Of a stretch of DNA of 64,000 nt, positions 9,944 through 61,906 are shown piece by piece; position 1 is the first letter of the stretch, and every line of letters starts with the position of its first letter. The DNA comes from a virus (Duplodnaviria > Caudoviricetes). Both the position numbers and the translations under genes were made by a program. The stretch spans positions 32,001 through 96,000 of the IMG/VR virus record IMGVR_UViG_3300046820_001270, one strand, 5' to 3'. The notes under the pieces were generated by a model. It saw nothing but the letters and a program-made list of their open reading frames with translations, was not told where the DNA came from and searched no databases.

Positions 9944-9946
9944 AAT

Positions 9947-12756: not shown

Positions 12757-12759
12757 AAT

Positions 12760-15332: not shown

Positions 15333-15338
15333 AAAATT

Positions 15339-15992
15339 ATGAAAAATACTTTATGGATTTTTGGAGATTCAACAAGCGACGAATTTACACCAAAAAATTT
15401 AAATGATAATTTTGATTTTAGGACCAAATATTATAATTATAAAGGTTTTACACCAAAAGTGTTTGGTCAAATAATATCCGAAACATTAAATTTAAATTAT
15501 AAAAATAATTCAGGTCAGGGATTTTGTAATGATAGTATTTTTCAAACTATTTGTGACGTGTCAGACCAAATTAAAAAAGAAGATATATTAATAATTAATT
15601 GGACCTCAATTACAAGATTTAGAATGATAAGTAAAATTAATGTTTGGACACATATTGTCCCTAATTTTAATGTCGACACTAAATTATTTAATAATATTAG
15701 TAATAATACAATAAACGAAATATTAATTAATAGAGATAATGATCTATACGTTAATGACGTAAATTCAAAAATAAAATTAATTAAAAACGCATATAAAGAT
15801 AATATTGTTATTAATTGGACACCTTTCATACATAAATTTGATGCGGAAATGTTATTTGATGATTTTGAAACAATATTTAAAGAAACTTCAGGTGAGATAA
15901 ATGATTATCATTTTAGTGAAAACGGACATTTAAAATTAGCGGATTATTTATTATCAATTATAGATCAAATAATGAATAAAAAATTAATTTAA
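15339..15992 (+). CDS. SGNH/GDSL hydrolase-like protein
   Basis: WIFGDS block I; DYHFSENGH terminal block. Confidence 0.7.
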   Translation: MKNTLWIFGDSTSDEFTPKNLNDNFDFRTKYYNYKGFTPKVFGQIISETLNLNYKNNSGQGFCNDSIFQTICDVSDQIKKEDILIINWTSITRFRMISKINVWTHIVPNFNVDTKLFNNISNNTINEILINRDNDLYVNDVNSKIKLIKNAYKDNIVINWTPFIHKFDAEMLFDDFETIFKETSGEINDYHFSENGHLKLADYLLSIIDQIMNKKLI

Positions 15993-16031
15993 AATTTTAT
16001 TTATTCATTATTTTTAATTATATTAGTTTAA

Positions 16032-16463
16032 ATGAAACTAATATCACATAGAGGTAATTTGTATGGGCCTAATCCAAATGAAGAAAATAACCCTCAATAC
16101 ATTATAGATACTCTTGAATTAGGATACGACGTAGAAATTGACGTTTGGTATATAGACAATAAATTCTATTTAGGTCACGACTATGCTAAATATGAAATAG
16201 ACATTAAGTTTCTATTAAATGAAAAATTATGGTGTCATTCTAAAAATTTAGATGCGTTAAATGAAATGTTAAACAATGGAATTAGATGTTTTTGGCATCA
16301 AAATGATGATTTTACATTAACTAGTGATGGTTTTATATGGACATACCCAAATAAAGAAACAACAATAAAATCAATAATTGTTTGTTTAGATGATACTTTA
16401 CCAAATAATTTAAATAAAAATAATATATATGGAATTTGCGGAGACAATGTCGGATCTTGGTAA
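16032..16463 (+). CDS. PLC-like/glycerophosphodiester phosphodiesterase-like protein (short)
   Basis: LISHRGN, ENN, DVEIDVW, YLGHD. Confidence 0.75.
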   Translation: MKLISHRGNLYGPNPNEENNPQYIIDTLELGYDVEIDVWYIDNKFYLGHDYAKYEIDIKFLLNEKLWCHSKNLDALNEMLNNGIRCFWHQNDDFTLTSDGFIWTYPNKETTIKSIIVCLDDTLPNNLNKNNIYGICGDNVGSW

Positions 16464-17226
16464 AATTAAACGAATTGCTGTATGTTTAAGTGGTAATTTT
16501 AGAACTTGGAAAACAGTTGTTAAAACTTGGGATAATGTTATAAAAATCGATAACGTTGAAGTGGATTATTTTATTCATACATGGGATAAAGTATCTCCGT
16601 CAATGCAAATAATCGGAAATTTAAAAAAAACTGGTATTACGGATGAAGAGATACTAAAAGACTATTACAAACCATTAGATATGAATTTACTTAATGAAGT
16701 ATTAGATTATCATAAACCTGTTAGTTATTTAATCGAATCTCCAAAAGATTTAAGTTTTAAAAACCCTAAACAATCGATATTTGAAAAATCACATTTATCA
16801 CAATTTTTTGGGATAATGATGGTAGGTAAATTAAAGAGAGAACATGAAATTAAAAATGACTTCACATATGATTTAGTAATACGAATGAGATTCGATACAT
16901 ATTTTACTACACCAATAATAATTGATAACATTAAACCCAAATTAAACACAGTGTATGGAAATCACTATGATTATTATTATGATGAAGTATATAAAAGACA
17001 TAATGGTAGATTGGGGGACATTTTTTGGTGTTCAGATTCACTAACTTATGATATACTGTCGGATTTTTATTTAGAATTACAAAACATTACAGATATACCA
17101 CATGGGACACCACCAGAATTTAGTTGGTTGCGTTATATAAAGAAAAACGGGATTAACATAACACCAAATCCTAGATGGGACTTACATATTCTAAGGGAGA
17201 ATGATACGTTAAAAAAATTAATATAA
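16447..17226 (+). CDS. Putative GT-A-like glycosyltransferase, uncharacterised family (paralog 1)
   Basis: RIAVCLSG.FRT, YFIHTW, YDLVIRMRFD, GDIFW; start moved to ATG 16447. Confidence 0.5.
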   Translation: MSDLGKIKRIAVCLSGNFRTWKTVVKTWDNVIKIDNVEVDYFIHTWDKVSPSMQIIGNLKKTGITDEEILKDYYKPLDMNLLNEVLDYHKPVSYLIESPKDLSFKNPKQSIFEKSHLSQFFGIMMVGKLKREHEIKNDFTYDLVIRMRFDTYFTTPIIIDNIKPKLNTVYGNHYDYYYDEVYKRHNGRLGDIFWCSDSLTYDILSDFYLELQNITDIPHGTPPEFSWLRYIKKNGINITPNPRWDLHILRENDTLKKLI

Positions 17227-18000
17227 ATGGAAAAAAGAAAAATTGCAGTTTGTATAAGTGGACAAATAAGAACAGCGATTGAAGCCGTATCTAATTTTAA
17301 TTTATTTTTTCAGGATGAAGATATAGATGTGTTTATTCACACATGGTATGACCCATCATTAGAAGATCATGAAAATGTAATAAATCAAATAAAAACACTA
17401 TATAAACCAAAAAAATTTCAAATTGATATATCACCAAATACCAATAGACTTAATTTTGAGGTAATGTTAAAGACCATTATGTTATCAAATGAATTAAAAA
17501 GGAAATATGAAGTTGAGAATGATATTAGGTATGATGTCGTTGTAAAATATAGATTTGACATTTTATTTCCACAAATTACCAAATTTACAGTAAATAACAT
17601 AGAACCACGTACATTATATTACCCACAAGGGAATAACGGAGTACAACATACGGACTATAATAATCACGGGATGACTGATGTTATATTTTGGGGAGATTCC
17701 CAAACGATGGATATTGCTTGTGATACTTATAGATATTATAAATTCGTATTATTGCCAATTAGAAACACATTTGTCGAAAAAACTGGACATATTGTATATG
17801 ACATGTCAGAATCATTAATGAGTCCAGGACAAATCATATTTAAGTATGCAACAAAACATAATATTTTCCCGATGGTTCTTAAAAAAGACGATAATAATTT
17901 TATGAATTTTACATTATGGAGAAAGGAAGTAAAAAATCTAAATTGGATAAACGATTTCGATAAAATAGAACATTTTTATCTAAATCAATATAACGACTAA
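17227..18000 (+). CDS. Putative GT-A-like glycosyltransferase, uncharacterised family (paralog 2)
   Basis: KIAVCISGQIRT, VFIHTW, YDVVVKYRFD, TDVIFWG; clearly paralogous to the preceding gene. Confidence 0.5.
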   Translation: MEKRKIAVCISGQIRTAIEAVSNFNLFFQDEDIDVFIHTWYDPSLEDHENVINQIKTLYKPKKFQIDISPNTNRLNFEVMLKTIMLSNELKRKYEVENDIRYDVVVKYRFDILFPQITKFTVNNIEPRTLYYPQGNNGVQHTDYNNHGMTDVIFWGDSQTMDIACDTYRYYKFVLLPIRNTFVEKTGHIVYDMSESLMSPGQIIFKYATKHNIFPMVLKKDDNNFMNFTLWRKEVKNLNWINDFDKIEHFYLNQYND

Positions 18001-18012
18001 AAAAATAATATT

Positions 18013-18888
18013 ATGAAATTATTGGTAACAGGAGATAGTTGGACATATGGTAGTGAATTAAGATCCCCTGAATTAAAAAAAGAAGACTTAGATACTCATA
18101 AAAATAATACTGAGTATAGAACTAAAAATGCTTGGCCACATAAATTAAGTAAATTAATGGGTAATGTTGATGAAATGGTAAATATTTCAAAACCATCCGC
18201 TAGTAATGATCGAATAGTGAGAGAATTAATTGATTATTTAACTAAAAATTACATTAAAGATAAAAAACCTGTTGACGATTTATTTGTAATTGTTGGATTT
18301 TCATCGTTAGATAGAGTTGATTTTTTTTACGACGGTTTATTTGGTAGAGGTTGGGAAACGATTTGGCCAAAATTTAATCATCATTATAGATTTTCCGATA
18401 TTGAGGATTTTAGTAAATTATATAATGAAGGCTTCTCAACAATTTATGGAGACTTCAATAGATATGTAAATCAAATACAATTTTTAGAATTATTTTTTGA
18501 AAAACATCATATAAAATATATGTTTTTTCATGGATTTTATCATCATCAAAATAAATATATAAGTAATTGGGAAGATGTGTTATATGTAAACGGATTAGCT
18601 TACGAATCTGGTACTTATTATTCTAAATTACATAATGAATTTGATTTAGATAGATGGATTGATATTGATCCAATACGTTTTGTTGATAAGGATAAACCAA
18701 TTCATAGTTTTCATAATAGAATAAAAAAAATTGCGAATGACCAAGACATATCATTAGACAAAATATTTGCGAAAAATATTGGTATGCATCCGTCAGAACT
18801 TGGACATACCTTATGGGCGGAATATCTTTATGAATATATGAAAGAAAATAAAAAGTTATTTAAGTTTATTGAAAAAACATTAATATGA
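18013..18888 (+). CDS. SGNH hydrolase-like protein
   Basis: VTGDSWTYG, ASNDRI, HPSELGH. Confidence 0.75.
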   Translation: MKLLVTGDSWTYGSELRSPELKKEDLDTHKNNTEYRTKNAWPHKLSKLMGNVDEMVNISKPSASNDRIVRELIDYLTKNYIKDKKPVDDLFVIVGFSSLDRVDFFYDGLFGRGWETIWPKFNHHYRFSDIEDFSKLYNEGFSTIYGDFNRYVNQIQFLELFFEKHHIKYMFFHGFYHHQNKYISNWEDVLYVNGLAYESGTYYSKLHNEFDLDRWIDIDPIRFVDKDKPIHSFHNRIKKIANDQDISLDKIFAKNIGMHPSELGHTLWAEYLYEYMKENKKLFKFIEKTLI

Positions 18889-19655
18889 TAAAAAAATTAA
18901 TGATTTGTGGAGATAGTTATGCATCAGGAATTGGATTAGATGAAAGTTATAATTTAGAAAAATCTTTTGGAGGTTTAATTTCTGAAAAATTAAGTATACC
19001 CTCAATAAATTACTCACGAGCAGGTATTTGTAATTTTGGAATATTTTTACAAGTTAAAAAATCTATTGAGGATAATAAAAATGATTTAGATAAATCATTA
19101 GTTATTATTTCATTAACACAATCTAGTAGATTAATGATTGCTTCCGAAAATATAACATCTGAGGATTTGGATTTATCAAATGTTGATTACATTAATAATC
19201 GACCATTTTCATATAGTGAAAAAAGAAAAAGAGACGTACCATTTATATTAAACAAAAGTCCTAAATTATTTAGCCAAACTATTTTAGATGTATTGGCACA
19301 TTTAAATAATAAAGTGTCGGGTGCAATGGAAGATGCTTATAAGATTTTACCAAAATATAAAATTGAAACATTAGGACAATATATACAAGATGTTTACTCC
19401 GATCCAATAAAAGATGAATATGACGTGGCTTTGGTTGCAAGAACACATCTATTATTAAAGATGAACAATATTAAACACATATTTTTAGGATCTCCAAGAA
19501 GTAAATTTGATTTTGTACCTGATGAAAATTTTTGTGAAGTAAATTGGAGAGAAATATCGGATAAATATCCAGACGAAATAGGATCAAGTCATTGTAATGA
19601 ATTTGGCCACGAAATGGTAAGAGATTTAATTTTAAAAAAAATATCAAATGAATAA
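18885..19655 (+). CDS. SGNH hydrolase-like protein
   Basis: ICGDSYASG, GICNFGI, SHCNEFGH. Confidence 0.7.
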   Translation: MIKKLMICGDSYASGIGLDESYNLEKSFGGLISEKLSIPSINYSRAGICNFGIFLQVKKSIEDNKNDLDKSLVIISLTQSSRLMIASENITSEDLDLSNVDYINNRPFSYSEKRKRDVPFILNKSPKLFSQTILDVLAHLNNKVSGAMEDAYKILPKYKIETLGQYIQDVYSDPIKDEYDVALVARTHLLLKMNNIKHIFLGSPRSKFDFVPDENFCEVNWREISDKYPDEIGSSHCNEFGHEMVRDLILKKISNE

Positions 19656-20835
19656 AGACACATTCTGCATAATGACGTACAAAGGTTTATTCGTTGAACC
19701 TACAAAACATGTGAAACCATGTTGTGTATTCAAAGATTTTGAAACCCCGTTAATATATGATGAAAATAAAACATTTGATGAAATGTTTAATTCCCCTCAA
19801 TTTATTGAATTAAGAGAAAAAATGGACAATGGTATTGTTCATAGTGGTTGTGTAAATTGTTTTAATGGCACTATTAACCATAGAGAGGGTATGAACATTA
19901 TGTTTTTTGGTAACGACTATGAAAAACTTAAAGAATTAAATATAAGTGAAGATTATAAATCGGACGAGATTCTTTATTTAGATTTAAGAATTTCCAATTT
20001 ATGTAATTTTAAATGTAGAATGTGTAATGCAACATATTCTTCCTCATGGGAAGACGAAATGAAACAAATTGAACCTAATTTTATATCTGAACCGAAATGT
20101 GGACATAATTGGATTAATCCTATTGTAGATAAAATAGATAAGATAAAATATCTTTATTTAGCAGGAGGAGAACCTTTAATAATGAAGGAAACATTTCAAT
20201 TATTAAAGTTAATAGAAAATAGAAAAAATGAAATTACATTATTTTTAAATACTAATTTGTCAAATTTAGAGTATAAAAAAATAGATGTTATTAATGAAAT
20301 AATAGAATTTAATAAAATACATTTATTTGTATCTTGTGATGGGTTTGGAGAAGTCGGTGAATACCAAAGAACAGGATTTAATACGGAAAAGTTTAAAACT
20401 AATTTAAAGACATTACTAAGTAGGATTAATAACTTAGATAAAATAAAATTAGATATAATTTATGCGTTAAGTTCAATAAATGTCTATAACCTGTTTAATT
20501 TTATGAAAGAACTAAAGGAAGAATTTAATTTAGGAGATGAAGTTATTAATTTTCAGTTTGTTAGTTCACCATGGTATTTTAGTGTGGCATCTATGGATGA
20601 AACACATAAAAAAGATGTGGTAAGTTTTATAAAAGATAATTATCATTTTTGTAATGAAAAAACTAAAAATCAATTAGATAATTTTATATATTTTGTCGAA
20701 AACAATAAAGACAACATAACCACATATCAAAAAGAAAAAGACTATGAATTCTTAAAAAAATTAGATATATTTAGAAATACAAATATAAATGAGGTTTCAC
20801 CTTGGATTTTTAAAAGTATTTTTAATGAGTTATAA
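19648..20835 (+). CDS. Radical SAM enzyme (twitch/SPASM-like)
   Basis: CNFKCRMC, LAGGEP, N-terminal FC..PCC..CVNC. Confidence 0.9.
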   Translation: MNKDTFCIMTYKGLFVEPTKHVKPCCVFKDFETPLIYDENKTFDEMFNSPQFIELREKMDNGIVHSGCVNCFNGTINHREGMNIMFFGNDYEKLKELNISEDYKSDEILYLDLRISNLCNFKCRMCNATYSSSWEDEMKQIEPNFISEPKCGHNWINPIVDKIDKIKYLYLAGGEPLIMKETFQLLKLIENRKNEITLFLNTNLSNLEYKKIDVINEIIEFNKIHLFVSCDGFGEVGEYQRTGFNTEKFKTNLKTLLSRINNLDKIKLDIIYALSSINVYNLFNFMKELKEEFNLGDEVINFQFVSSPWYFSVASMDETHKKDVVSFIKDNYHFCNEKTKNQLDNFIYFVENNKDNITTYQKEKDYEFLKKLDIFRNTNINEVSPWIFKSIFNEL

Positions 20836-21538
20836 ATGTTTATACGCAAATGGAGATAGTTGGACGGAAGGGGATGAAATCGGAGATGAAAAGGATCATC
20901 GTAACACGCCGACCCTTAGATATTACAACTCTTGGCCTTGGTTTTTATCACAAGAATTGAATATCGGTGTTTGTGTAAATGACGGTGCCAACGGAAGATC
21001 AAATTATAGAATTTTCAGAAGAACCATTAAATTTATATTTGAATGGATAGAAAATGGAAAAAATCCATCTGAGTTAATTATTATTAATGGATGGACAACG
21101 CCAGAAAGATTTGAACTACCTGTTATAGATAAAAAAGGAAAAGGTAGTTATACTCATCTATTAATCAATACCCCGATATATGATAAAATTAAGTATGATT
21201 CATTAACTATTGATAAAATTAATAAATTTAGCAATTTATTTTATGAATTAATTGACTTAAATGAATTAGATAAAAATATGATTAACCATATGAGAATATT
21301 GAGAATTATTACCAAATATTTTGGTATAACTTATTTTGATTTTATTGGTGTTGGTAATCACCCGAATAACATTAAATTAAATTATAAAGATGATTTTAGT
21401 AATCTTTTTTCTAAAAGTTTTTTAAATACGGTATATGAAAATAAATGGAGTACTCACGAACAAAAACACCCAACAATCGAAACCCACAAAAAATGGGCAA
21501 CACTATTGAAAAATTTTATTAATGAATATAATTTATAG
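20825..21538 (+). CDS. SGNH hydrolase-like protein
   Basis: ANGDSWTEG, GRSNYRI, HPTIETH; start moved to ATG 20825. Confidence 0.75.
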   Translation: MSYKCLYANGDSWTEGDEIGDEKDHRNTPTLRYYNSWPWFLSQELNIGVCVNDGANGRSNYRIFRRTIKFIFEWIENGKNPSELIIINGWTTPERFELPVIDKKGKGSYTHLLINTPIYDKIKYDSLTIDKINKFSNLFYELIDLNELDKNMINHMRILRIITKYFGITYFDFIGVGNHPNNIKLNYKDDFSNLFSKSFLNTVYENKWSTHEQKHPTIETHKKWATLLKNFINEYNL

Positions 21539-22244
21539 TTTATGTGGTAATGGACAAAGATTTAAAGATAAGGGATATGATACAATAAAATACCTTATCA
21601 AATATGGTAATGCACCTATGTTGTATCATTCTGTAAATACATTAGGTATTAGTGGTAATTTACATTTTATTGTTAGAGACGTACATTTAAAAGAATATAA
21701 ATTTTTAGAAAAGTTTCTATTAGATTTAGGTGGTAAAATAACAATTTGTTATAAGGAAACTTCGGGAGCAGCAGAATCTTTGTTATTATGTGAAAATGAT
21801 ATTGAAAATAAAGATTTACCATTTATATCGGTAAATTCAGATCAATATATGAATTGGAATGCTAAACCATTTATAAAAAAATTATTAGAAAATCCCGATA
21901 CTTCATATACACTAACATTTCAATCAACCGATCCAAAATGTAGTTATGTTAGATTGTTAAATGATAAAATAGTCGAAGTTAGAGAAAAATTAGTAATTAG
22001 CAATCAAGCAACTGTTGGGGTATATCATTGGAAAACAAGTAAAGATTTTTTTATTGATGCTAAACAAATGATTAATGATAATGTTAGAGACAATAATGAA
22101 TTTTACGTTGCACCAGTTTATAACTTTTCAATAAAAAGAGGATTAGTGGTTAAACCACATGAAATAAATCCAGATAATTTTATACCAGTCGGTACTCCAT
22201 ATGACTTGGTAAATTTTATGGCAGAACAAAGATTTTTTGATTAA
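21522..22244 (+). CDS. Sugar nucleotidyltransferase-like (NTP_transferase/GT-A) protein
   Basis: CGNGQRF..GY..IKYLI, TSGAAES, VNSD, VREK, EFYVAPVYN, VGTP. Confidence 0.75.
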   Translation: MNIIYSLCGNGQRFKDKGYDTIKYLIKYGNAPMLYHSVNTLGISGNLHFIVRDVHLKEYKFLEKFLLDLGGKITICYKETSGAAESLLLCENDIENKDLPFISVNSDQYMNWNAKPFIKKLLENPDTSYTLTFQSTDPKCSYVRLLNDKIVEVREKLVISNQATVGVYHWKTSKDFFIDAKQMINDNVRDNNEFYVAPVYNFSIKRGLVVKPHEINPDNFIPVGTPYDLVNFMAEQRFFD

Positions 22245-22576
22245 TGGAAAAATACAATATAAATGATTTTAAGAGAGGGTGGTTTATTGGTAATTTTGAA
22301 CCATCATTATTTAAGGGTAATTTTGAAGTAGGTCTTCAAAAATCAAAAATGGGAGATAGCCATGACGACCATTTCCATAAAAAAAATACCGAATATAATT
22401 TAGTTATTAGCGGTAGAATCAAAATAAACGATGAGGTATTTATTAAGGATGATATATTCATAATTAAACCATATACAGTAAGTCATAGTGTAGAATATCT
22501 TGAAGATACTGAAATTTTGGTTGTAAGAGATATGAGCGATTCTACAGATAAGTACATTTATAAAATAATTAATTAA
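22244..22576 (+). CDS. Cupin-fold protein
   Basis: RGWFIGNF, HFHK..EYNLVISG cupin metal motif. Confidence 0.75.
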   Translation: MEKYNINDFKRGWFIGNFEPSLFKGNFEVGLQKSKMGDSHDDHFHKKNTEYNLVISGRIKINDEVFIKDDIFIIKPYTVSHSVEYLEDTEILVVRDMSDSTDKYIYKIIN

Positions 22577-22578
22577 CA

Positions 22579-23802
22579 ATGAATATATATAAAAAAACGG
22601 CACCCGATAATCATTTTGTGGTCGAGTATTATTTGGAAGCAAAAACATCATTAAAAGATGCGGCTTGGAACATCGCTATAGGACAGAGTATAGGAAATCC
22701 AAATAATCGAAGTATTTGGGAAACTGAAGAAATGTATGAAAATCACATTTGTTTTATACTCGAAGATGAGGATTACTTAAAATCACATAAAAATGGTATT
22801 GTAAAAATTTCATTTCCACTTTCAAACATTAATTTAGAAGAAGACGGAATTTCACAAATTTTATGTCACATTGCTGGAGGACAAGTTGATATCTTAGAAA
22901 TTCAAAAATGTCATGTTTTAAATATTGAATTACCTGAAGATGTTGAAAACTCATTTAAATTAAAACCAGCATACGGTATAGACGGATTTAGAAAATTAAA
23001 TGGTGTTTACGAAAAACCATTTTTAGGTGGGATCATTAAACCAAAAGTTGGTATGTCACCGGAAGTGTTATTAGAAGTGGTAAAAGAAATGGTCAACGGA
23101 GGGGTTAATTTTATCAAAGAAGACGAGTTATTAGGAAACCCAAATCACTGTCCATTAGAACAAAGAGTACCACTTATTACAAAATGGTTAAAAGAAAATG
23201 CTCCTGATGTGATATATTGTTTTTGTATTAATGGAGATAGTCCATATGCATTACAAAGAGCCCAATTTGTGGTGGATAATGGGGGTAATGGTATTCATAT
23301 AAACGTTTGGAGTGGATTAGGTGTGTACCGAGCAATCAGGAAACAAAACCCAAATTTATGGATACATTTTCAAAAAAGTGGTGATAAATTTTTCACAGAT
23401 AAAAGAGCACCGTTTCACATATATTGGCCCGTGATTTGTAAAATTGCAGGATGGTCTGGTGTAGATTCAATTCATGCGGGTATGATTGGTGGGTATATGA
23501 ATCAGGATGAAGAAGAATTAAAAGACACTTTAAAAATGTTATGGAAATACAATATTGTTCCAGCTCTAAGTTGTGGTATGCATCCAGGATTAGTACAATA
23601 TGTTAATGAATCTTTAAAAAGTTTTGATTGGATGGCAAATGTCGGTGGAGCAATGCATGCACATCCGATGGGAACTTTGGGAGGAGGAATTGCCATGAAA
23701 CAAGCAATAAATAAAAACTTTGACGGACAAGAATTCAAAATTGCAACTGAGAAATGGGGCAATAAAGAGTTTAACCCAGATTTGGCTTATCGATATTTTT
23801 AA
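22579..23802 (+). CDS. RuBisCO-like protein (form IV, RLP)
   Basis: GIIKPKVG (K175/K177 equivalents), IKEDE (KxDE), IHAG, SCG, GGAMHAHP; loop-6 Lys absent. Confidence 0.9.
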   Translation: MNIYKKTAPDNHFVVEYYLEAKTSLKDAAWNIAIGQSIGNPNNRSIWETEEMYENHICFILEDEDYLKSHKNGIVKISFPLSNINLEEDGISQILCHIAGGQVDILEIQKCHVLNIELPEDVENSFKLKPAYGIDGFRKLNGVYEKPFLGGIIKPKVGMSPEVLLEVVKEMVNGGVNFIKEDELLGNPNHCPLEQRVPLITKWLKENAPDVIYCFCINGDSPYALQRAQFVVDNGGNGIHINVWSGLGVYRAIRKQNPNLWIHFQKSGDKFFTDKRAPFHIYWPVICKIAGWSGVDSIHAGMIGGYMNQDEEELKDTLKMLWKYNIVPALSCGMHPGLVQYVNESLKSFDWMANVGGAMHAHPMGTLGGGIAMKQAINKNFDGQEFKIATEKWGNKEFNPDLAYRYF

Positions 23803-23816
23803 AAAATAATTTAATA

Positions 23817-25484
23817 ATGTATATAATAGGTATATCCGCATTTTATCACGATTCGTCTGTTTGTTTATTTAGAGACAATCAATTAATTTTTGCTTGTGAA
23901 GAAGAAAAGTTCACAGGTATTAAACATGATAGTTCGTTCCCAACGAATGCCTTGGAATATATCTATAAACAATATAAGATTACATCCAAAAATTTACAAG
24001 CAGTTTGTTATTATGAGGATCCTAAATTAAAATATCAAAGAGTAATGGAGAACATTAAACCTCAATGGTTTAAAAATCCAATATACTCATTGAAGTCTTA
24101 TTTTAAAATACGTAGTAATGTAAAGAATGTTGATAAGAAATTAAAAGAGATCTGCCCAACGATATTTTATTCAACACATCATGAAGCACATCAGTATTAT
24201 GCACATTATACATCACATTTTGAGGAATCAACTTGTTTATCAGTTGACGGTGTAGGTGAGATTGATACGGTGTCATTGGGAGTTGCAGATTATAATGGAA
24301 TCAAATACAGTTCACTTGCAAAGTATCCACATTCAATGGGTCTTTATTACTCCGCATTGACCTCATATTTAGGGTTTAGACCGAACGAAGGTGAGTATAA
24401 GGTAATGGGATTAGCGTCTTATGGTGATCCTCAAAAGTACATTAAAGAGGTACGTGATTTGATTTCATTTAAAAGTGGTAAGTTGGTGTGTAATATGAAT
24501 GTATTTTGTTGGAATAAGACCGATAAATCTATGTTCAATGAGAAACTTGTGGAACTATTAAGTGTTCCACAAAGATTACCTGAAGAAACATTGGAACAAA
24601 CACATAAAGACTTGGCTGCTGCCGTTCAACTAAGATATGAGGAGGTATTGTTTGAAATTATCAAATCAATTAGACACGTAAGTAAAAGTCCAAACTTAAC
24701 ATTAAGTGGTGGTTGTGCGTATAATGGAACGGCTAATGGTAAAATTGTTGATAAATCACATTTTACACACCTTTGGATTCCACCGGCACCATCTGATGCG
24801 GGATCGGCAATTGGATCAGTCGTTCATTATTTGGTTAAAGAACGTAAAGTAAGAAGTAAAATTACAAGAAATCCATTTTTAGGACCTCAATATTATTTTG
24901 ATGATATTAGACGAGCAATTCATAGAAATAATTTTAAAAAGTTTGAATCTGAAAATAAATTAAGAACACATATTGCTCAAAAATTATTCGAAGGTAAAGT
25001 TGTGGGATGGTTTAATGGTCACATTGAATTCGGAGCAAGATCTTTAGGTAATAGATCAATATTGGCAAATCCAACATTACCTGATATGAAAGATAGAATT
25101 AATAAGGTCATTAAGAAAAGAGAAGGATTTAGACCGTTTGCACCAATGGTGACCAAAGAGAAACAAGATCAATTCTTTGAGATGACGGATGACGTTCCTT
25201 ATATGAATCAGGTTGTTAAGGTAAAGGAAGAATATCGAGATAAATTACCTGCGGTCACACACGTAGATGGTAGTGCAAGAGTTCAAACAGTTTACAAATA
25301 CACCGTTATTTATGATTTATTAAACGAATTTGAAAAATTAAGTGGTTATCCAATTTTATTGAATACCTCATTCAATGTTAAAGATAAGACAATGGTGTTG
25401 ACACCGAAAGATGCGGTTGATACTTTCTTTGATACTGATATGGATATATTAGTAATGGGTAATTATGTTATGTATAAAAATTAA
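23817..25484 (+). CDS. O-carbamoyltransferase (NodU/CmcH/TobZ family)
   Basis: HDSS..EEKF, HHEAH, VDGVGE, GEYKVMGLA, GGCAYN, EFGARSLGNRSILA, REGFRPFAP, HVDGSARVQ, LNTSFN. Confidence 0.95.
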   Translation: MYIIGISAFYHDSSVCLFRDNQLIFACEEEKFTGIKHDSSFPTNALEYIYKQYKITSKNLQAVCYYEDPKLKYQRVMENIKPQWFKNPIYSLKSYFKIRSNVKNVDKKLKEICPTIFYSTHHEAHQYYAHYTSHFEESTCLSVDGVGEIDTVSLGVADYNGIKYSSLAKYPHSMGLYYSALTSYLGFRPNEGEYKVMGLASYGDPQKYIKEVRDLISFKSGKLVCNMNVFCWNKTDKSMFNEKLVELLSVPQRLPEETLEQTHKDLAAAVQLRYEEVLFEIIKSIRHVSKSPNLTLSGGCAYNGTANGKIVDKSHFTHLWIPPAPSDAGSAIGSVVHYLVKERKVRSKITRNPFLGPQYYFDDIRRAIHRNNFKKFESENKLRTHIAQKLFEGKVVGWFNGHIEFGARSLGNRSILANPTLPDMKDRINKVIKKREGFRPFAPMVTKEKQDQFFEMTDDVPYMNQVVKVKEEYRDKLPAVTHVDGSARVQTVYKYTVIYDLLNEFEKLSGYPILLNTSFNVKDKTMVLTPKDAVDTFFDTDMDILVMGNYVMYKN

Positions 25485-25487
25485 AAT

Positions 25488-25604
25488 ATGAAAAAATTAA
25501 TCAATTGGGTAAAAGACTACTTTGAAAGAAGAAAAAGAAAGAAAGAATTTAAAAAGAAATTAGAAGATTTACGTAAAAGAGATCCATTTATTTATAATCA
25601 CTAA
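25488..25604 (+). CDS. 38-aa basic peptide ending RKRDPFIYNH (not in the ORF track)
   Basis: Hand translation MKKLINWVKDYFERRKRKKEFKKKLEDLRKRDPFIYNH; starts 3 nt after the carbamoyltransferase stop. Confidence 0.65.
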   Translation: MKKLINWVKDYFERRKRKKEFKKKLEDLRKRDPFIYNH

Positions 25605-25632
25605 TTTCGTGATATTTATATAAAAACAAATC

Positions 25633-25836
25633 ATGACATTCAAAATCAATGCACTTAAAACAATCGTAGGAAACGAAGAATTCGTATTATTGGACAATAT
25701 TTTTAACTCTGCTCAAGAAGCATTGGACTTTGTAAAGGCAAACTTATCATTAAATGATACTTTAGGACCAAAAAACGTTGTAAGTATTAAAATAAATGAC
25801 GTTTACTATCATTATTTTGAAATTATCGAAGGATAA
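25633..25836 (+). CDS. Hypothetical protein
   Basis: 67-aa ORF preceded by TATTTAT. Confidence 0.55.
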   Translation: MTFKINALKTIVGNEEFVLLDNIFNSAQEALDFVKANLSLNDTLGPKNVVSIKINDVYYHYFEIIEG

Positions 25837-25837
25837 T

Positions 25838-25866
25838 TTGACAATTTGAGGTATTTTTAGTATATT
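25838..25866 (+). promoter_or_regulatory. Sigma70-like promoter TTGACA-N17-TATATT
   Basis: TTGACA at 25838-25843, 17-nt spacer, TATATT at 25861-25866, just upstream of cysC. Confidence 0.7.
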
Positions 25867-25874
25867 ATATCATT

Positions 25875-26312
25875 ATGATATACTGGTTAACTGGACAACC
25901 CGCAGCAGGTAAAACAACATTAGGTACTTGGATTCAATCAAGTTTCCCTAATAAGTCCATAATTGTGGACGGAGACGATATCCGAGAAATATTCGTAAAT
26001 AAAGACTATTCTGAGGAAGGAAGGAAGAAAAACATTGAAAAGGCACAGATTTTGGCTAAGTTCCTTCATCATAAGGGTTATACCGTTATCGTATCGTTAG
26101 TTTCACCATATAGAGATCAAAGAGAAGAGTTTAAGAACGAAATGGGTGATAACTTAAGAGAAATCTATGTACATACCACCCAAGATAGAGGACGTAATCA
26201 TTTTCATGTTGAGGGGTATGAGCCACCTTTAGATAACTACTACGATTGTAATACTACAGATAGTAGTGAATATCAAACATTTTTAGAATTAAGAAGAAAA
26301 TTAAACATTTAA
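25875..26312 (+). CDS. cysC: Adenylylsulfate (APS) kinase
   Basis: GQPAAGKTT P-loop, VDGDDIRE, VIVSLVSPY, YEPP. Confidence 0.9.
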   Translation: MIYWLTGQPAAGKTTLGTWIQSSFPNKSIIVDGDDIREIFVNKDYSEEGRKKNIEKAQILAKFLHHKGYTVIVSLVSPYRDQREEFKNEMGDNLREIYVHTTQDRGRNHFHVEGYEPPLDNYYDCNTTDSSEYQTFLELRRKLNI

Positions 26313-26316
26313 TAAT

Positions 26317-26682
26317 ATGAGTAAGAAATATGCAATGTATGTTGGCAGATGGCAGAATTGGCACAAGGGCCACGAATGGTTAATTAACCAACAGTTAGAA
26401 AAGGGTAAGGATATTTGGGTTGCAATTAGAAATGTTCCGACAGATGAAAATAATCCTAAAACGGCCCAAGAAGTAATGATGGAATTAGCTGGTGAACCAT
26501 ATTTTATGGAAAATTCACATAGAATTAATATATCCATTATTCCAGATATTGAAAGTATCAATTATGGTAGAGGGGTTGGTTATGACGTTATTTATCACGA
26601 ACCACCACCTGAAGTTGAAGTAATAAGTGGAACTAAAATCCGTAATGGAGAAATGACAACTGACGGTAAAGTTAAAGGATAA
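26317..26682 (+). CDS. HxGH-type (cytidylyltransferase-like) nucleotidyltransferase
   Basis: GRWQNWHKGH and C-terminal ISGTKIR. Confidence 0.8.
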   Translation: MSKKYAMYVGRWQNWHKGHEWLINQQLEKGKDIWVAIRNVPTDENNPKTAQEVMMELAGEPYFMENSHRINISIIPDIESINYGRGVGYDVIYHEPPPEVEVISGTKIRNGEMTTDGKVKG

Positions 26683-27197
26683 TGATACACCAAAGAGTTT
26701 TATTTACCAAAGACGAATGTGATTACCTTATAAATTACAGAAATAATGGTGTTTACCGAAATAACGGAGGGTATGTAAACCATGTTGATATAAATTATAA
26801 ACAGTGGTCAATTTTCAGAAATAGTGATTTAGAATTTTTGTTTGATAGAATTATATCTTTTGCTGAAATATCCTTTGATGTAAAAATAGAAAATTTTAAA
26901 GAGGAAAGTTGGATCTATCAGTGGGAAGTGAATGACGGTTATGGAATGCATAGGGATAATGTTAAAAATAGGAAATTCATAATAGGTGTACAATTGAATG
27001 ACGATTATGTTGGAGGGGATTTAATGGTTGATTATGGTAATCAAATATTAATTGCGGATAAAACAATTGGTAATTGTTATACTTTTGAATCCGCAATGTT
27101 ACACGGAGTTTCACCTATAATATCGGGTAATAGATTTAATATGTTAACTTTTTTTCCAACGTATAATATAAAACAGAATAAAGTTAGTTTAATATGA
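26682..27197 (+). CDS. 2OG-Fe(II) oxygenase
   Basis: HRD, YVGGDL, LHGVSPIISGNRF. Confidence 0.85.
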   Translation: MIHQRVLFTKDECDYLINYRNNGVYRNNGGYVNHVDINYKQWSIFRNSDLEFLFDRIISFAEISFDVKIENFKEESWIYQWEVNDGYGMHRDNVKNRKFIIGVQLNDDYVGGDLMVDYGNQILIADKTIGNCYTFESAMLHGVSPIISGNRFNMLTFFPTYNIKQNKVSLI

Positions 27198-27403
27198 TAG
27201 TAGAAAGAAAAAGACACATAGTTAAAACAATATCGTATCGTGTTATTAGTACTTTAATAGGGTTTGTTATAATGTGGTGGGTAAGTGGATCAATTAAAGT
27301 TGGTGCGGCATTTGGTGTGGCGGAATTGATATATAAACCCATACAATATTACATTCACGAAAGAATATGGTATAAGTGGATAAAATATGGATTAAAAAAA
27401 TAA
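27194..27403 (+). CDS. Small membrane protein (DUF2061-like)
   Basis: RHIVKTISYR..YYIHERIW with two hydrophobic segments. Confidence 0.75.
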   Translation: MIVERKRHIVKTISYRVISTLIGFVIMWWVSGSIKVGAAFGVAELIYKPIQYYIHERIWYKWIKYGLKK

Positions 27404-27439
27404 AAAAAGAAAAAACAATAATCTAATATATAATAAGTT

Positions 27440-28003
27440 ATGATTGGTAATATAGACATATTTGAAAAATTCCTATCACCCGAAGAATGCGACCTTATTT
27501 TAAATAAATGTAAAGGAGAATTAACATTATCAAAGGCGAAAGTATACGGGGATAATTCTAACGATACTCATACTAAAACAATTAGAAAATCATCAATCGG
27601 GTGGATATCTGATTTAGGATTTTTAAATGAAAGATTAACAAATATATTAAAAAAAACATTCACAATAAACGGTATGGAAGTTACTGGATTAGGTAATTAT
27701 CAATTTACTGAATACAAAGAAGACGAATATTTTGATTGGCATACTGATAGTACGGACACTATATATAGAGATAGATTTACATCAATAGTAATTCAATTAA
27801 ACGATACATATCAAGGTGGAATATTGGAAATAAAAAATATTAAAGGAGAACTAGTACCAATAGAAAATAAAATAGGAACGTTATATATTTTTAATTCAAG
27901 ATTATCACATAGAGTAACACCTGTGGTAGATGGTATTAGATACTCATTAGTAAATTGGGTATCATTAGTTAAAACCGATTCAAAAAAACAAAATCTTTTA
28001 TAA
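27440..28003 (+). CDS. 2OG-Fe(II) oxygenase (prolyl-hydroxylase-like)
   Basis: YQFTEY..WHTD, YQGGILE, HRVTPV..GIRYSLVNW. Confidence 0.9.
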   Translation: MIGNIDIFEKFLSPEECDLILNKCKGELTLSKAKVYGDNSNDTHTKTIRKSSIGWISDLGFLNERLTNILKKTFTINGMEVTGLGNYQFTEYKEDEYFDWHTDSTDTIYRDRFTSIVIQLNDTYQGGILEIKNIKGELVPIENKIGTLYIFNSRLSHRVTPVVDGIRYSLVNWVSLVKTDSKKQNLL

Positions 28004-28023
28004 TAATAAAAAAACAAAAACAA

Positions 28024-28233
28024 ATGAAAATTTTTAATTTAGGTGATGCCTCACCATCAGGTAGAATGACATTCCTTTCAATAGGGGTGGTGGTATTTAT
28101 AGCCAATTGTTTAGCTGGTTTTGATAACATTAGTTGGGTACATTGGCTACCTCCGGTTCTTTTACCTTTGGCCGCTTTAACTGGAATTTGTCCTTTTAAG
28201 ATCGTATGGGAAAAATTAGGATTTAGAAAATAA
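28024..28233 (+). CDS. Small membrane protein (DUF2892/YgaP-like)
   Basis: Two hydrophobic segments, ALTGICP motif. Confidence 0.6.
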   Translation: MKIFNLGDASPSGRMTFLSIGVVVFIANCLAGFDNISWVHWLPPVLLPLAALTGICPFKIVWEKLGFRK

Positions 28234-28242
28234 AAAAATAAA

Positions 28243-28578
28243 ATGAAATTTATATTAACATTTGCAATTGCTATTATAATTTTATATTCTATTATTGGTT
28301 GGAAACGAATATTTGATAGATATAAAATGTTTATGAATAAAACTTATTGGACAGATTATAATACAATTGAGTTTGCTGCTTGGTTTGCTAAGGCGATCAT
28401 CATAATACCTGGATTAGTATTCGGAATTGAAATATGGTATCTACATTTCCTAACACTACTTACGTCTTCATTATTGATTTGGGCATCAATGAAAAAGGAT
28501 TTACCTACATTAATTGCTTTTAATACGATATGGATTTGTTTATCATTAACGATATTAATAAGACATTTAATACCATAA
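28243..28578 (+). CDS. Membrane protein, about 4 TM segments
   Basis: Four hydrophobic stretches in 111 aa. Confidence 0.6.
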   Translation: MKFILTFAIAIIILYSIIGWKRIFDRYKMFMNKTYWTDYNTIEFAAWFAKAIIIIPGLVFGIEIWYLHFLTLLTSSLLIWASMKKDLPTLIAFNTIWICLSLTILIRHLIP

Positions 28579-28579
28579 T

Positions 28580-29821
28580 ATGAAAGTTACAATTATAGGT
28601 GGAGGAACTGCCGGTTGGTTATCGGGTTTATATTTTAATTCTCAGGGATATGAAGATATTACAATTATAGATAGTTCCAAAGTTGGAATATTAGGTGCGG
28701 GAGAGGCATCTACACCAAATTTAAATGGATTATTATTAAATTTAGGAATTGATAAGATTGATTTTTTAAAAACAACCGGAGCAACCATAAAGGTATCGAA
28801 TGATTTTATAAATTGGTCTCCCTTCGGAGGTAAATACGAAAACCCATTCGGTCACCCCAATAGATTAAAAGAAGAAAATGATAATACATATGGTTATCAT
28901 TTTGATGCGAGAGAATGTGCTAAGTATTTTAAAAATATAGGAATTAATAGAGGAATAAAACATTTAGATGTTAATATTACACATTTTACTCAAAATGAAA
29001 ACGGAGATATTACCAATATTCATACCGAAGAAAAAATAAACATTGAAACAGAATTTGTTATCGATTGTAGTGGTTTTGGTAGATTATGTATCGGTAAATT
29101 ATATAATAGTAAATGGAAATCGTATTCGGAATATTTGAAGGCTAACTGTGCAATTGCATATTTTCTACCACAGGATAGAGTATTGACAGAAAATTCTAAA
29201 ACACATACCCAATCCATTGCTATGAAAAACGGATGGATGTGGCAAGCACCACTACAACATAGATGGGGATGTGGATATGTGTTTAATGATACTTACATTA
29301 CAAATGAAGAGGCTAAAAAAGAAGTTGAAGATTACTTGGGTAGAGAAATTGAAATTGTTAAAACTTTCAAATTTGATGCTGGTGGGTATGAAGAAACATG
29401 GATTAATAATTGTGTTGCACTTGGGTTATCTAGCGGATTTTTAGAACCATTAGAAGGAACATCGTTAATGTCCGTTATATGGTCTTTAAATAAATTAAGT
29501 GATATTAGGTTAGAAAATTGTAATTTTGAAAATAGAAAATTATATAATGAATATGTTAATAATGTAAATTATCAATCTATGTTGTTTGTTAGACATCATT
29601 ATAATTGTGGTCGAACTGATACTAAATTTTGGAGAGATATAAATAATACTAAATTACCATCAGATTTAATTAAAATACTTAGAAGTTTAGAAAAGAATAT
29701 TGAAGACGATTCATTGATTTATATTACAAGTAAAAAAGATGGATTACCAATATTTGGTAAAAATCATTATCAAATAGTTGATTTGGGTCATAAATCAAAA
29801 ACAATAAAAACATTTTTATAA
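28580..29821 (+). CDS. Tryptophan halogenase (PrnA/RebH)-family flavoprotein
   Basis: IIGGGTAGW, GAGEAST, IDCSG, GWMWQAP (WxWxIP-like), FLEPLEGTS. Confidence 0.85.
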   Translation: MKVTIIGGGTAGWLSGLYFNSQGYEDITIIDSSKVGILGAGEASTPNLNGLLLNLGIDKIDFLKTTGATIKVSNDFINWSPFGGKYENPFGHPNRLKEENDNTYGYHFDARECAKYFKNIGINRGIKHLDVNITHFTQNENGDITNIHTEEKINIETEFVIDCSGFGRLCIGKLYNSKWKSYSEYLKANCAIAYFLPQDRVLTENSKTHTQSIAMKNGWMWQAPLQHRWGCGYVFNDTYITNEEAKKEVEDYLGREIEIVKTFKFDAGGYEETWINNCVALGLSSGFLEPLEGTSLMSVIWSLNKLSDIRLENCNFENRKLYNEYVNNVNYQSMLFVRHHYNCGRTDTKFWRDINNTKLPSDLIKILRSLEKNIEDDSLIYITSKKDGLPIFGKNHYQIVDLGHKSKTIKTFL

Positions 29822-61883: not shown

Positions 61884-61906
61884 TAAATTGGGATATTTAT
61901 ATTGAT

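What the first reader, a model, noticed from the sequence alone, without database searches (positions are those of the whole stretch)
21522..23802. Phage RuBisCO-like protein in a nucleotidyltransferase-cupin-RLP cassette: candidate route to an unusual nucleotide sugar
Seen, using form I numbering by motif: the enolisation machinery is kept (KPK, KEDE, H294, H327, SCG, GG). The carboxylase residues are changed: E60 to Q (GQSIG), N123 region to GGQ, R295 to F (IHFQK), and loop 6 lacks K334 (HAGMIGGY). The gene is translationally coupled to a cupin and an NTP-transferase, in the same co-directional run as a short phosphodiesterase (16032) and two novel GT-like paralogs (16447, 17227). Known: form IV RLPs catalyse enolase, isomerase, epimerase or decarboxylase reactions (methionine salvage; apiose and threonate catabolism). 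Inference: this cassette makes and activates a branched or rearranged sugar or polyol-phosphate for the glycosyltransferases, a biosynthetic use of the RuBisCO fold.
Basis: partly seen in the sequence, partly recalled or inferred. Interest (0 to 1): 0.72.

Follow-up and report, generated by a model that had tools for sequence, protein, structure and literature searches.

The report
Phage RuBisCO-like enzyme in sugar-activation cassette
A 334-kb uncultured lake phage carries a RuBisCO relative that cannot fix CO2 and sits in a conserved gene cassette with a sugar-activating enzyme, a small metal enzyme, a miniature phosphodiesterase and sugar-transferase-like proteins; it probably helps build an unusual activated sugar, a job never tested for this enzyme family.

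Summary
The genes are real. Window 22579-23802 encodes a 407-aa RuBisCO-like protein (RLP). It is tightly coupled to a 110-aa cupin (22244-22576) and a 240-aa sugar-phosphate nucleotidyltransferase (21522-22244).

The RLP belongs to a mostly viral clade (support 99). This clade is separate from OiaX-type catabolic RLPs and from true RuBisCOs. It scores below every curated cut-off.

In 67 dereplicated loci the nucleotidyltransferase is present in 64, the cupin in 53, a 143-aa GDPD-like phosphodiesterase in 52 and DUF7796 proteins (GT-A fold) in 39. The usual gene order is NTP-cupin-RLP-GDPD-DUF7796. Twenty active-site positions are invariant and three more nearly so. A cultured Azospirillum has the same four-gene core.

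Neighbouring genes are nucleotide-sugar tailoring enzymes.

Best reading: the RLP supplies a rearranged keto-sugar phosphate that is then nucleotide-activated for a glycan. The substrate and the acceptor are unknown.

Phage RLPs were reported by Jaffe et al. (PMC6389311) without context or function. This scan had already noted the same cassette on at least 12 other genomes.

The parts
22579..23802 (+). RuBisCO-like protein (407 aa, P0001) of the mostly viral 'form IV-like' clade. It keeps the metal/carbamate triad and the P1 phosphate loops and lacks the carboxylase residues.
   Evidence: Pfam PF00016 9e-33. Below every NCBIfam cut-off. Alignments to PDB 2cwx and 3nwr. Clade support 99. Active-site signature conserved across 67 sequences.
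22244..22576 (+). Mini-cupin (110 aa, P0271) with an invariant HxH...E metal motif. Closest folds are sugar(-phosphate) or NDP-keto-sugar isomerases and epimerases.
   Evidence: Motif in the sequence. Alignment A2 invariants H43, H45, E50. AF2 pLDDT 94. Foldseek best hits 7zvm/7zvy (mini phosphomannose isomerases), CapF cupin domain and Pac13.
21522..22244 (+). Sugar-phosphate nucleotidyltransferase (240 aa, P0272) of the 4evw-like subfamily.
   Evidence: NCBIfam RmlA/GlmU-type hits. Profile A3 against PDB 4evw 8.5e-34, GMPP/RmlA about 1e-12. Invariant G9, G11, R13, K23.
16032..16463 (+). Miniature GDPD/PLC-like phosphodiesterase (143 aa). It is a cassette member, displaced about 5 kb upstream in this phage.
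   Evidence: Invariant H6, R7, E18, N19, E35, D37, H49. Profile against GDPD 7e0v 2.9e-5, N-terminal half only. Present in 52 of 67 loci.
16429..17226 (+). DUF7796 protein with a GT-A glycosyltransferase-like fold (start may be 16447).
   Evidence: Pfam DUF7796. AF2 pLDDT 82. Foldseek best hits are GT6 enzymes at 5e-7, TM about 0.5. Fused to the GDPD-like domain in L066.
17227..18000 (+). Second DUF7796 paralog, 28% identical to the first.
   Evidence: Same BLAST cluster as the first. Alignment A5.
18013..21538 (+). Lineage-specific insert between the two halves of the cassette: DUF6071 (18013-18888), unknown (18885-19655), N-terminal-twitch radical SAM (19648-20835), DUF6071 (20789-21538).
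   Evidence: Pfam and NCBIfam. These clusters are shared only with locus L071.
23817..25484 (+). NodU-like carbamoyltransferase directly downstream of the RLP. It is a probable glycan-tailoring enzyme and not part of the conserved core.
   Evidence: Pfam Carbam_trans_N/C 1e-59 to 1e-65. Cluster shared only with L086.
25875..26312 (+). Short APS-kinase-like P-loop protein (145 aa). Not conserved with the cassette.
   Evidence: Pfam APS_kinase 4.8e-18. Cluster found in this locus only.

Best explanation
The RLP is an active, non-carboxylating enzyme of the mostly viral 'form IV-like' branch of the RuBisCO superfamily.

Mechanism (inferred): it uses the retained carbamyl-Lys/Asp/Glu metal site and the retained C1-phosphate loops to enolise a phosphorylated keto-sugar taken from host central metabolism, and so isomerises or epimerises it. 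It does not add CO2 and does not cleave the carbon chain.

Context (shown): it is the most conserved gene of a mobile cassette.

Pathway (inferred from context and fusions):
1. The RLP supplies the phospho-sugar.
2. The 4evw-like nucleotidyltransferase converts that into an NDP- (or CDP-) linked donor.
3. The mini-cupin isomerises or epimerises either the sugar phosphate or the NDP-keto-sugar.
4. The GDPD-like phosphodiesterase and the DUF7796 GT-A-like proteins process and transfer the unit onto a glycan.

In this phage the cassette lies in a roughly 50-kb glycan island beside the tail-fibre gene, so the likely acceptor is a virion or cell-surface glycan. The substrate, the nucleotide, the product and the acceptor are all unknown.
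For: 1. Catalytic competence. K175, K177, K201, D203, E204, S379, G381, G403 and a clade-specific set (Q294, Y334, C380, GQ60, NP65/66, G123, H240, N242) are identical in 67 of 67 dereplicated sequences that are 38-84% identical overall. H327, K295 and G404 are kept in 66 of 67 and Q124 in 65 of 67.

2. Loss of carboxylase residues, from the alignments.

3. Synteny. By HMM, the NTP-transferase is in 64 of 67 loci, the cupin in 53, the GDPD-like protein in 52, DUF7796 in 39, and the first three together in 44. The commonest order is NTP-cupin-RLP-GDPD-DUF7796.

4. Specificity. Of 12 RLP loci at 36% identity or more in cellular assemblies, 11 have the NTP-transferase nearby; the exception is a 3-kb fragment. 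Among the more distant RuBisCO loci only two weak matches appeared (E 4e-7 and 7e-5). The sister RLPs have none next to them.

5. Fusions. NTP-cupin in 5 loci and GDPD-DUF7796 in 1. RLP-NTP in P0122.

6. A cultured Azospirillum oleiclasticum has GDPD-like, RLP, cupin and NTP in a row, followed by CysD, CysN/C and a GT41.

7. Context genes: SDR NDP-sugar epimerase/dehydratases (23 loci), sugar O-methyltransferases, UDP-galactopyranose mutase, and a HAD (beta-PGM-like)-NTP fusion.

8. In RLP-free bacterial glycan loci the same NTP-transferase family follows an APH-type kinase and a small HAD protein. There the phosphate ester comes from a kinase. The phage cassette has no kinase, which fits the RLP supplying the phosphate ester.

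9. Cupin fold neighbours are sugar isomerases and epimerases.
Against: - No biochemical datum exists for any member of the clade.
- No substrate can be named.
- The role of the GDPD-like protein does not fit any standard nucleotide-sugar route.
- The RLP-NTP fusion rests on one 2.5-kb contig and could be a frameshift artefact.
- Fused domains need not catalyse consecutive steps; type II PMI-GMP is an example (my own knowledge).
- Cupin fold matches are modest (TM 0.55-0.65) and also include decarboxylases and dioxygenases.
- Gln at position 294 and Asp at 298 have no characterised precedent that I could check.
- The cassette is split in this window by a 3.5-kb insert.
Confidence: 0.55

Rival explanations
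1. Teichoic-acid-like variant. The nucleotidyltransferase makes a CDP-linked polyol or ketose phosphate, as for CDP-ribitol or CDP-methylerythritol. The unit is transferred as a phosphodiester, and the GDPD-like enzyme then trims or 'uncovers' that phosphodiester. The product would be a phosphate-linked decoration and not a glycosidic sugar.
For: The GDPD-like protein keeps all phosphodiesterase catalytic motifs. It is in 52 of 67 loci and is fused once to the GT-A-like protein. The RLP keeps the loops that bind a primary C1 phosphate. The R. rubrum RLP product feeds an IspD-type route (my own knowledge, not tested here).
Against: The nucleotidyltransferase is nearer to hexose-1-phosphate enzymes (GMPP, RmlA, about 1e-12) than to IspD or inositol-phosphate cytidylyltransferases (about 6e-5). 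No TagF-, LicD- or Stealth-type phosphotransferase was seen. DUF7796 resembles glycosyl-transferring GT6 enzymes.
Confidence: 0.2
2. The activated sugar is made for DNA hypermodification, as in the glucosylated or arabinosylated hydroxymethylcytosine of T-even phages. It is not made for a protein or cell-surface glycan.
For: The phage is T4-like according to other notes of this scan (not checked by me). An isomerase plus a nucleotidyltransferase is also the logic proposed for phage UDP-arabinose supply (my own knowledge).
Against: The cassette also occurs in a cultured Azospirillum next to PAPS-synthesis genes and a GT41, and in loci from DPANN and Patescibacteria assemblies. Here it lies among GT7-LamG, GT4/GT9 and tail-fibre genes. 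No DNA-base-modifying gene was seen in the window.
Confidence: 0.1
3. An auxiliary salvage pathway. RLP plus cupin (plus HAD in some loci) would be a variant of methionine or 5'-deoxyadenosine salvage (MtnW enolase, MtnX phosphatase, MtnD acireductone dioxygenase). It would clear by-products of the phage's many radical SAM enzymes.
For: The window has about eight radical SAM genes. RLP, HAD and cupin are the three folds of the MtnW/X/D steps (my own knowledge).
Against: MtnW models score 116 and 91 bits against cut-offs of 409 and 514. No acireductone dioxygenase appears among the cupin's sequence or fold matches. The radical SAM genes are not conserved with the cassette. The tightest partner is a nucleotidyltransferase, which has no role in salvage. 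No MtnA, MtnB or MtnK was seen.
Confidence: 0.06
4. A catabolic RLP, of the apiose or tetronate type, carried as a host-metabolism gene.
For: An OiaX model matches at 6e-36.
Against: That score is 124 bits against a cut-off of 700. Identity to plasmid OiaX proteins is 28% or less. It falls in a separate tree clade. Catabolic RLPs sit next to four-carbon acid sugar kinases and transporters, and none is found here.
Confidence: 0.03

Closest known systems
Phage/Beckwithbacteria 'Form IV-like' RuBisCO-related proteins (Jaffe, Castelle, Dupont and Banfield, Mol Biol Evol 2018/19, PMC6389311)
   Same: They are encoded on large myovirus-type phage contigs from many environments. They are highly divergent from other RLPs, keep only part of the active-site set, and have unknown function. 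My tree likewise gives a distinct, mostly viral clade.
   Different: That paper gives no gene context: the words nucleotidyl, glycosyl and cupin do not occur in it. I could not place their sequences in my tree, so identity of the two clades is very likely but not shown.
Characterised RLPs: MtnW/YkrW DK-MTP-1-P enolase, R. rubrum MTRu-1-P 1,3-isomerase, OiaX 3-oxo-isoapionate-4-P decarboxylase
   Same: Same fold. Same carbamyl-Lys/Asp/Glu metal site and C1-phosphate loops. Enediolate chemistry without CO2 fixation is expected.
   Different: Identity is 25-30%. Scores are below all curated cut-offs. The tree clade is separate. The active-site signature differs (Q294, K295, D298, Y334, C380). The context is biosynthetic (nucleotidyltransferase, GT-like proteins) and not salvage or catabolic (kinase, transporters).
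Type II phosphomannose isomerase / GDP-mannose pyrophosphorylase (ManC/AlgA/XanB) and the archaeal mini-PMI cupins (PDB 7zvm, 7zvy)
   Same: A nucleotidyltransferase is paired with, and in 5 loci fused to, a small metal cupin. The cupin's best fold matches are the mini-PMIs.
   Different: Sequence similarity is weak (E about 2e-4). The nucleotidyltransferase belongs to another subfamily (4evw-like). An RLP and a GDPD-like enzyme are added. This is a functional analogy only.
PDB 4evw, 'nucleoside-diphosphate-sugar pyrophosphorylase' of Vibrio cholerae (structural genomics)
   Same: It is the closest solved relative of the cassette's nucleotidyltransferase, full length, at 8.5e-34.
   Different: I know of no assigned substrate for it. 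In Pseudomonadota this family occurs without an RLP: after an APH-type kinase and a small HAD protein, or as a tandem double domain.
NDP-heptose (GmhA/HddA/GmhB/HddC) and AmgK-MurU salvage routes
   Same: The logic is the same: make a sugar phosphate, optionally remove a second phosphate with a HAD enzyme, then nucleotidylate it. HddC-type enzymes match the profile at about 6e-9.
   Different: Those routes use a kinase to create the phosphate ester. The phage cassette has no kinase and has an RLP in its place.

Membership tests
RuBisCO large-subunit superfamily (PF00016 + PF02788) | Both domains match above Pfam gathering scores | tested here: met
   114.2 bits against 30.1, and 25.5 against 20.7.
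Bona fide RuBisCO (forms I-III) | Carboxylase residues E60, N123, H294, R295, H298 and K334 are present | tested here: not met
   Gly/Gln, Gly/Gln, Gln, Lys, Asp and Tyr at those positions.
Bona fide RuBisCO (forms I-III) | Reaches a curated equivalog score (form III TIGR03326; PRK04208; form II PRK13475) | tested here: not met
   162 against 497, 136 against 438, and 87 against 489 bits.
MtnW DK-MTP-1-P enolase | Curated equivalog score, and methionine-salvage neighbours | tested here: not met
   116 against 409 and 91 against 514 bits. No salvage genes in the window or in related loci.
OiaX-type catabolic RLP | Curated equivalog score, clustering with OiaX, and an adjacent four-carbon acid sugar kinase | tested here: not met
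   124 against 700 bits. Identity of 28% or less. Separate clade. The kinase is present next to the reference RLPs and absent here.
Phage 'Form IV-like' RLP clade (Jaffe et al.) | Phage-encoded, forming a clade apart from the named form IV groups | tested here: inconclusive
   A distinct clade with SH-aLRT 99, mostly viral contigs.
Sugar-phosphate nucleotidyltransferase (GT-A-like NTP_transferase) | N-terminal G-x-G-x-R motif plus a conserved Lys, and a full-length profile match to solved members | tested here: met
   G9, G11, R13 and K23 are invariant. 4evw at 8.5e-34, with GMPP, RmlA and GlmU matches.
Sugar-phosphate nucleotidyltransferase (GT-A-like NTP_transferase) | Known sugar phosphate and NTP | not testable with these tools
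   The nearest solved relative has no substrate that I know of.
Cupin superfamily | G-x5-H-x-H-x3,4-E-x6-G motif and a double-stranded beta-helix fold | tested here: met
   Motif present. AF2 pLDDT 94 with cupin fold matches.
Acireductone dioxygenase (MtnD) | Detectable sequence or fold similarity to ARD, and a four-ligand metal site | tested here: not met
   No ARD among PDB sequence hits at E up to 10 or among the 50 listed Foldseek hits. The motif-2 His is not conserved.
Glycerophosphodiester phosphodiesterase (GDPD, PLC-like TIM barrel) | Catalytic His/Arg, Glu-Asn, Glu/Asp metal ligands and the second His | tested here: met
   H6, R7, E18, N19, E35, D37 and H49 are invariant in 33 sequences.
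Glycerophosphodiester phosphodiesterase (GDPD, PLC-like TIM barrel) | Full-length (about 240 aa) barrel | tested here: not met
   Only 143 aa. Only residues 2-53 align to GDPD 7e0v, at 2.9e-5.
GT-A glycosyltransferase (for DUF7796) | GT-A Rossmann-like fold | tested here: met
   Foldseek gives GT6, alpha3GalT and B3GalT5 at 5e-7 to 1e-5, TM about 0.45-0.52.
GT-A glycosyltransferase (for DUF7796) | DxD-type donor/metal motif and transferase activity | tested here: inconclusive
   The invariant residues are G22, R154 and D156, with D46, D148 and D197 nearly so. No clear DxD was assigned.

The most novel reading that the evidence does not exclude
This clade is the first biosynthetic branch of the RuBisCO superfamily. 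Using RuBisCO's first partial reaction (metal-stabilised enediolate formation), it would convert a common ketose phosphate or bisphosphate into a rare keto-sugar phosphate. That product would pass directly to a nucleotidyltransferase, giving a kinase- and mutase-independent route to a so far undescribed nucleotide sugar. Large phages, and a few bacteria and archaea, would use this sugar to decorate virions or cell surfaces.
Probability: 0.4. Interest if true: 0.8.

Novelty: new variant of a known kind. Interest (0 to 1): 0.64.

Why it matters
Every RuBisCO-like protein with a known function works in salvage or catabolism. A large and abundant clade wired to nucleotide-sugar synthesis would give the fold a new kind of job.

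The clade is big. I found 2133 database proteins at E of 1e-10 or better and 385 IMG/VR stretches.

If the reading holds, it would also reveal a new nucleotide sugar and explain part of the glycan islands that giant aquatic phages carry next to their tail fibres.

The strictly conserved active-site signature and the existence of a cultured Azospirillum with the same operon make the question directly testable.

Tried and rejected
- tblastn of the RLP against 50,697 GenBank phage records found no match, so no cultured phage handle emerged.
- No whole genome is held for this window.
- The promoter and terminator scan of 14000-28500 found no more sites than shuffled sequence gives.
- I looked up the sister RLPs (P0175, P0179, P0198) for ancestral context. 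Only 1.5-2.6-kb contigs exist, and the ORFs next to them match none of the four partner families.
- The contig of the RLP-NTP fusion P0122 is a single 2.5-kb record with no DNA available. I therefore use it only as weak support.
- Atlas feature searches for the cupin and the GDPD-like protein gave only generic cupin and GDPD/Menorin leads.
- I considered and rejected methionine salvage, an ARD-type cupin and OiaX-type catabolism (see the rival explanations).
- I considered CbbY-type repair for the HAD domain. The match is weaker (2.7e-9) than to beta-phosphoglucomutase and sugar phosphatases (1e-14 to 1e-16).
- I could not name the substrate. Schemes that start from ketose-1-phosphates or from fructose or sedoheptulose bisphosphates remain speculation.
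- No complex prediction was run, because the report does not claim physical binding.
Full report
**What is in the window**

The window is AT-rich (about 25-37% GC). It comes from a 334,429-bp metagenomic contig (JGI 3300043419). The identical RLP was found on 6 contigs; the four places shown come from four different samples.

The window carries a collagen/S74 tail-fibre gene (39772-41670), an endolysin (61880-63373) and PHROG glycosyltransferases. Its first 50 kb is a co-directional glycan and tailoring island. The island holds three GT7-LamG enzymes, about eight radical SAM genes, DUF6071 proteins, a carbamoyltransferase, 2OG oxygenases, a halogenase-like protein and a GT4-FkbM-GT9 fusion.

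The finding's three ORFs exist as stated and are tightly packed. The TAA stop of the first gene overlaps the ATG of the second at 22244. The third ATG follows the second stop by 2 nt.

**Gene identities**

*RLP, 22579-23802.* It is a RuBisCO large-subunit homologue (PF00016 9e-33, PF02788 1.7e-5). It falls far below every curated equivalog cut-off:
- form III: 162 against 497 bits
- OiaX: 124 against 700 bits
- MtnW: 116 against 409 bits

Its best solved relatives are the P. horikoshii form III enzyme (2cwx, 2e-34) and an uncharacterised RLP (3nwr).

*Nucleotidyltransferase, 21522-22244.* It belongs to a distinct subfamily whose closest structure is 4evw (8.5e-34). GMPP and RmlA follow at about 1e-12.

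*Cupin, 22244-22576.* It has a textbook cupin motif 1, with invariant H43, H45 and E50. Its AF2 model (pLDDT 94) is closest to archaeal mini phosphomannose isomerases, the CapF epimerase cupin domain and Pac13.

**Active site**

Both PDB alignments place the sequence IHFQKSGD opposite IHAHRAMH. This gives H294 = Gln265, R295 = Lys266 and H298 = Asp269.

Retained positions:
- K175 and K177 (K154, K156)
- K201, D203 and E204 (K180, D182, E183)
- H327 (H299)
- S379 and G381 (S331, G333)
- G403 and G404 (G356, G357)

Lost positions:
- K334 is Tyr306.
- N123 is Gly101.
- E60 is Gly35.
- T65 and W66 are Asn40 and Pro41.

Across 67 dereplicated clade members (38-84% identical) 20 of the 24 positions tabulated are invariant, three more differ in one or two sequences, and D269 is kept in 60 of 67.

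My inference from general RuBisCO enzymology is as follows. The Mg/carbamate enolisation machinery and the C1-phosphate (P1) site are kept. The residues for CO2 addition and for hydration and cleavage are gone. The distal (P2) site is remodelled. This points to one conserved, non-cleaving enediolate reaction on a phospho-keto sugar.

**Distribution and phylogeny**

The family is large. There are 2133 proteins at E of 1e-10 or better and 385 stretches in IMG/VR.

In one-genome-per-species assemblies only about a dozen loci reach 36% identity. These are Pelagibacteraceae single-cell genomes, Patescibacteria and DPANN MAGs, and one cultured isolate, Azospirillum oleiclasticum.

A maximum-likelihood tree of 132 sequences recovers the clade with SH-aLRT 99. 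The clade is apart from OiaX-type and four-carbon-kinase-associated RLPs, and apart from form I and III enzymes. Its sister is a small group of unclassified RLPs. The ORFs next to those sister RLPs match none of the four partner families, so they have no nucleotidyltransferase there.

That condition is not met.

**Conserved cassette**

I dereplicated the loci at 90% RLP identity, which left 67. HMMs built from the partner proteins find the following:

| Partner | Loci (of 67) |
|---|---|
| Nucleotidyltransferase | 64 |
| Cupin | 53 |
| GDPD-like protein (143-156 aa) | 52 |
| DUF7796 | 39 |
| First three together | 44 |

The commonest order is NTP-cupin-RLP-GDPD-DUF7796.

The window's 'short phosphodiesterase' (16032-16463) and 'GT-like paralogs' (16429-18000) are these same families. 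Here they are separated from the trio by a 3.5-kb insert that is shared only with L071.

The GDPD-like protein keeps every GDPD catalytic motif but is only about half the normal length. DUF7796 models as a GT-A fold.

Fusions occur: NTP-cupin in 5 loci, GDPD-DUF7796 in 1, and RLP-NTP once on a short contig.

The association is clade-specific. Among the more distant RuBisCO loci only two weak nucleotidyltransferase matches appeared (E 4e-7 and 7e-5). Azospirillum has GDPD-RLP-cupin-NTP in a row, followed by CysD, CysN/C and a GT41.

**Mosaic evolution**

RLP identity to the window falls into two groups, 72-84% and 51-56%. Partner identities stay flat, with means of 35%, 40% and 45%. They do not correlate with RLP identity (Spearman 0.09, -0.19 and -0.26).

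L071 has the most similar partners (51-54%) but only a 55% RLP. The genes therefore have different histories. RLPs that are 55% identical appear to be interchangeable within the cassette. This fits a single conserved upstream step followed by diversifying downstream steps.

**Context and comparison**

Recurrent neighbours are SDR NDP-sugar epimerase/dehydratases (23 loci), sugar O-methyltransferases, UDP-galactopyranose mutase and a HAD-NTP fusion. The HAD domain of that fusion resembles beta-phosphoglucomutase and sugar phosphatases.

In 14 of 401 Pseudomonadota genomes the same nucleotidyltransferase family occurs without an RLP. In the two such loci that I annotated it sits in rhamnan/WcbI-type polysaccharide clusters, preceded by an APH-type kinase and a small HAD protein, with DUF7796 within 5 kb. 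Three other loci carry a tandem double-domain protein.

In those loci a kinase supplies the phosphate ester. The phage cassette has no kinase, so the RLP (with the GDPD-like enzyme) is the likely supplier.

**Interpretation**

The best-supported reading is a biosynthetic cassette for an activated sugar or sugar phosphate. The conserved gene neighbourhood and the retained active site are shown. The flow RLP, then nucleotidyltransferase, then cupin, then transfer is inferred. The substrate, the nucleotide and the acceptor are unknown.

The rival readings (phosphodiester-type decoration, DNA modification, salvage of radical-SAM by-products, catabolism) are weighed in their own sections above.

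**Novelty**

Phage RLPs were reported by Jaffe et al. (PMC6389311) with function 'unclear' and without gene context. Further full-text searches found no later characterisation.

Earlier reports of this scan reached the same cassette on at least 12 other genomes. My results agree with them and add these points:
- the corrected residue register
- the conserved active-site signature
- the mosaic-evolution evidence
- the GDPD-DUF7796 fusion
- the fold assignments for DUF7796 and the cupin
- the kinase-versus-RLP comparison

Noticed in passing
window 7993-15332, 19648-20835, 35607-36671: About eight radical SAM genes sit in one co-directional glycan island. Several carry SPASM or N-terminal 'twitch' domains. 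Their substrates are unknown, and they are not conserved with the RLP cassette.
   Followed up: partly
window 23817-26312; L102:6771-9568: A NodU-like carbamoyltransferase and a truncated APS-kinase-like protein follow the RLP here. In Azospirillum the same cassette is followed by CysD and CysN/C (PAPS synthesis). This hints that the glycan is also carbamoylated or sulfated.
   Followed up: partly
window 26682-29821: Two 2OG-Fe(II) oxygenases and a tryptophan-halogenase-like flavoenzyme (PF04820, 2.6e-86) lie just downstream. This is unusual tailoring chemistry for a phage.
   Followed up: no
L055:5827-6885, L065:6411-7472, L075:6841-7956, L085:3493-4551, L087:6410-7468: Five loci carry 352-371-aa fusion proteins of nucleotidyltransferase plus cupin. 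These look like a miniature analogue of type II PMI-GMP. Four of the five are divergently oriented to the RLP.
   Followed up: partly
L066:8206-9276: One 356-aa ORF joins the GDPD-like domain to a DUF7796 GT-A-like domain.
   Followed up: partly
L202:9021-10694, L204:9925-11694, L206:9730-11463: Pseudomonadota genomes encode 557-589-aa proteins made of two tandem 4evw-like nucleotidyltransferase domains. In L202 this gene is next to a GtrA-like membrane protein. Their function is unknown.
   Followed up: partly
L084 (IMG/VR 3300043419_001220): The same lake sample holds a second contig with an NTP-cupin-RLP trio. Its partner proteins are the closest to the window's (51-53% identical), but its RLP is only 54% identical.
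   Followed up: no
L005-L010:2412-4941: In the 83%-identical RLP lineage the cassette is flanked by two PF11397 (GlcNAc-transferase-like) genes and a 790-aa TylF/HtrL/GT2 fusion. This surrounding is completely different from the window's.
   Followed up: no
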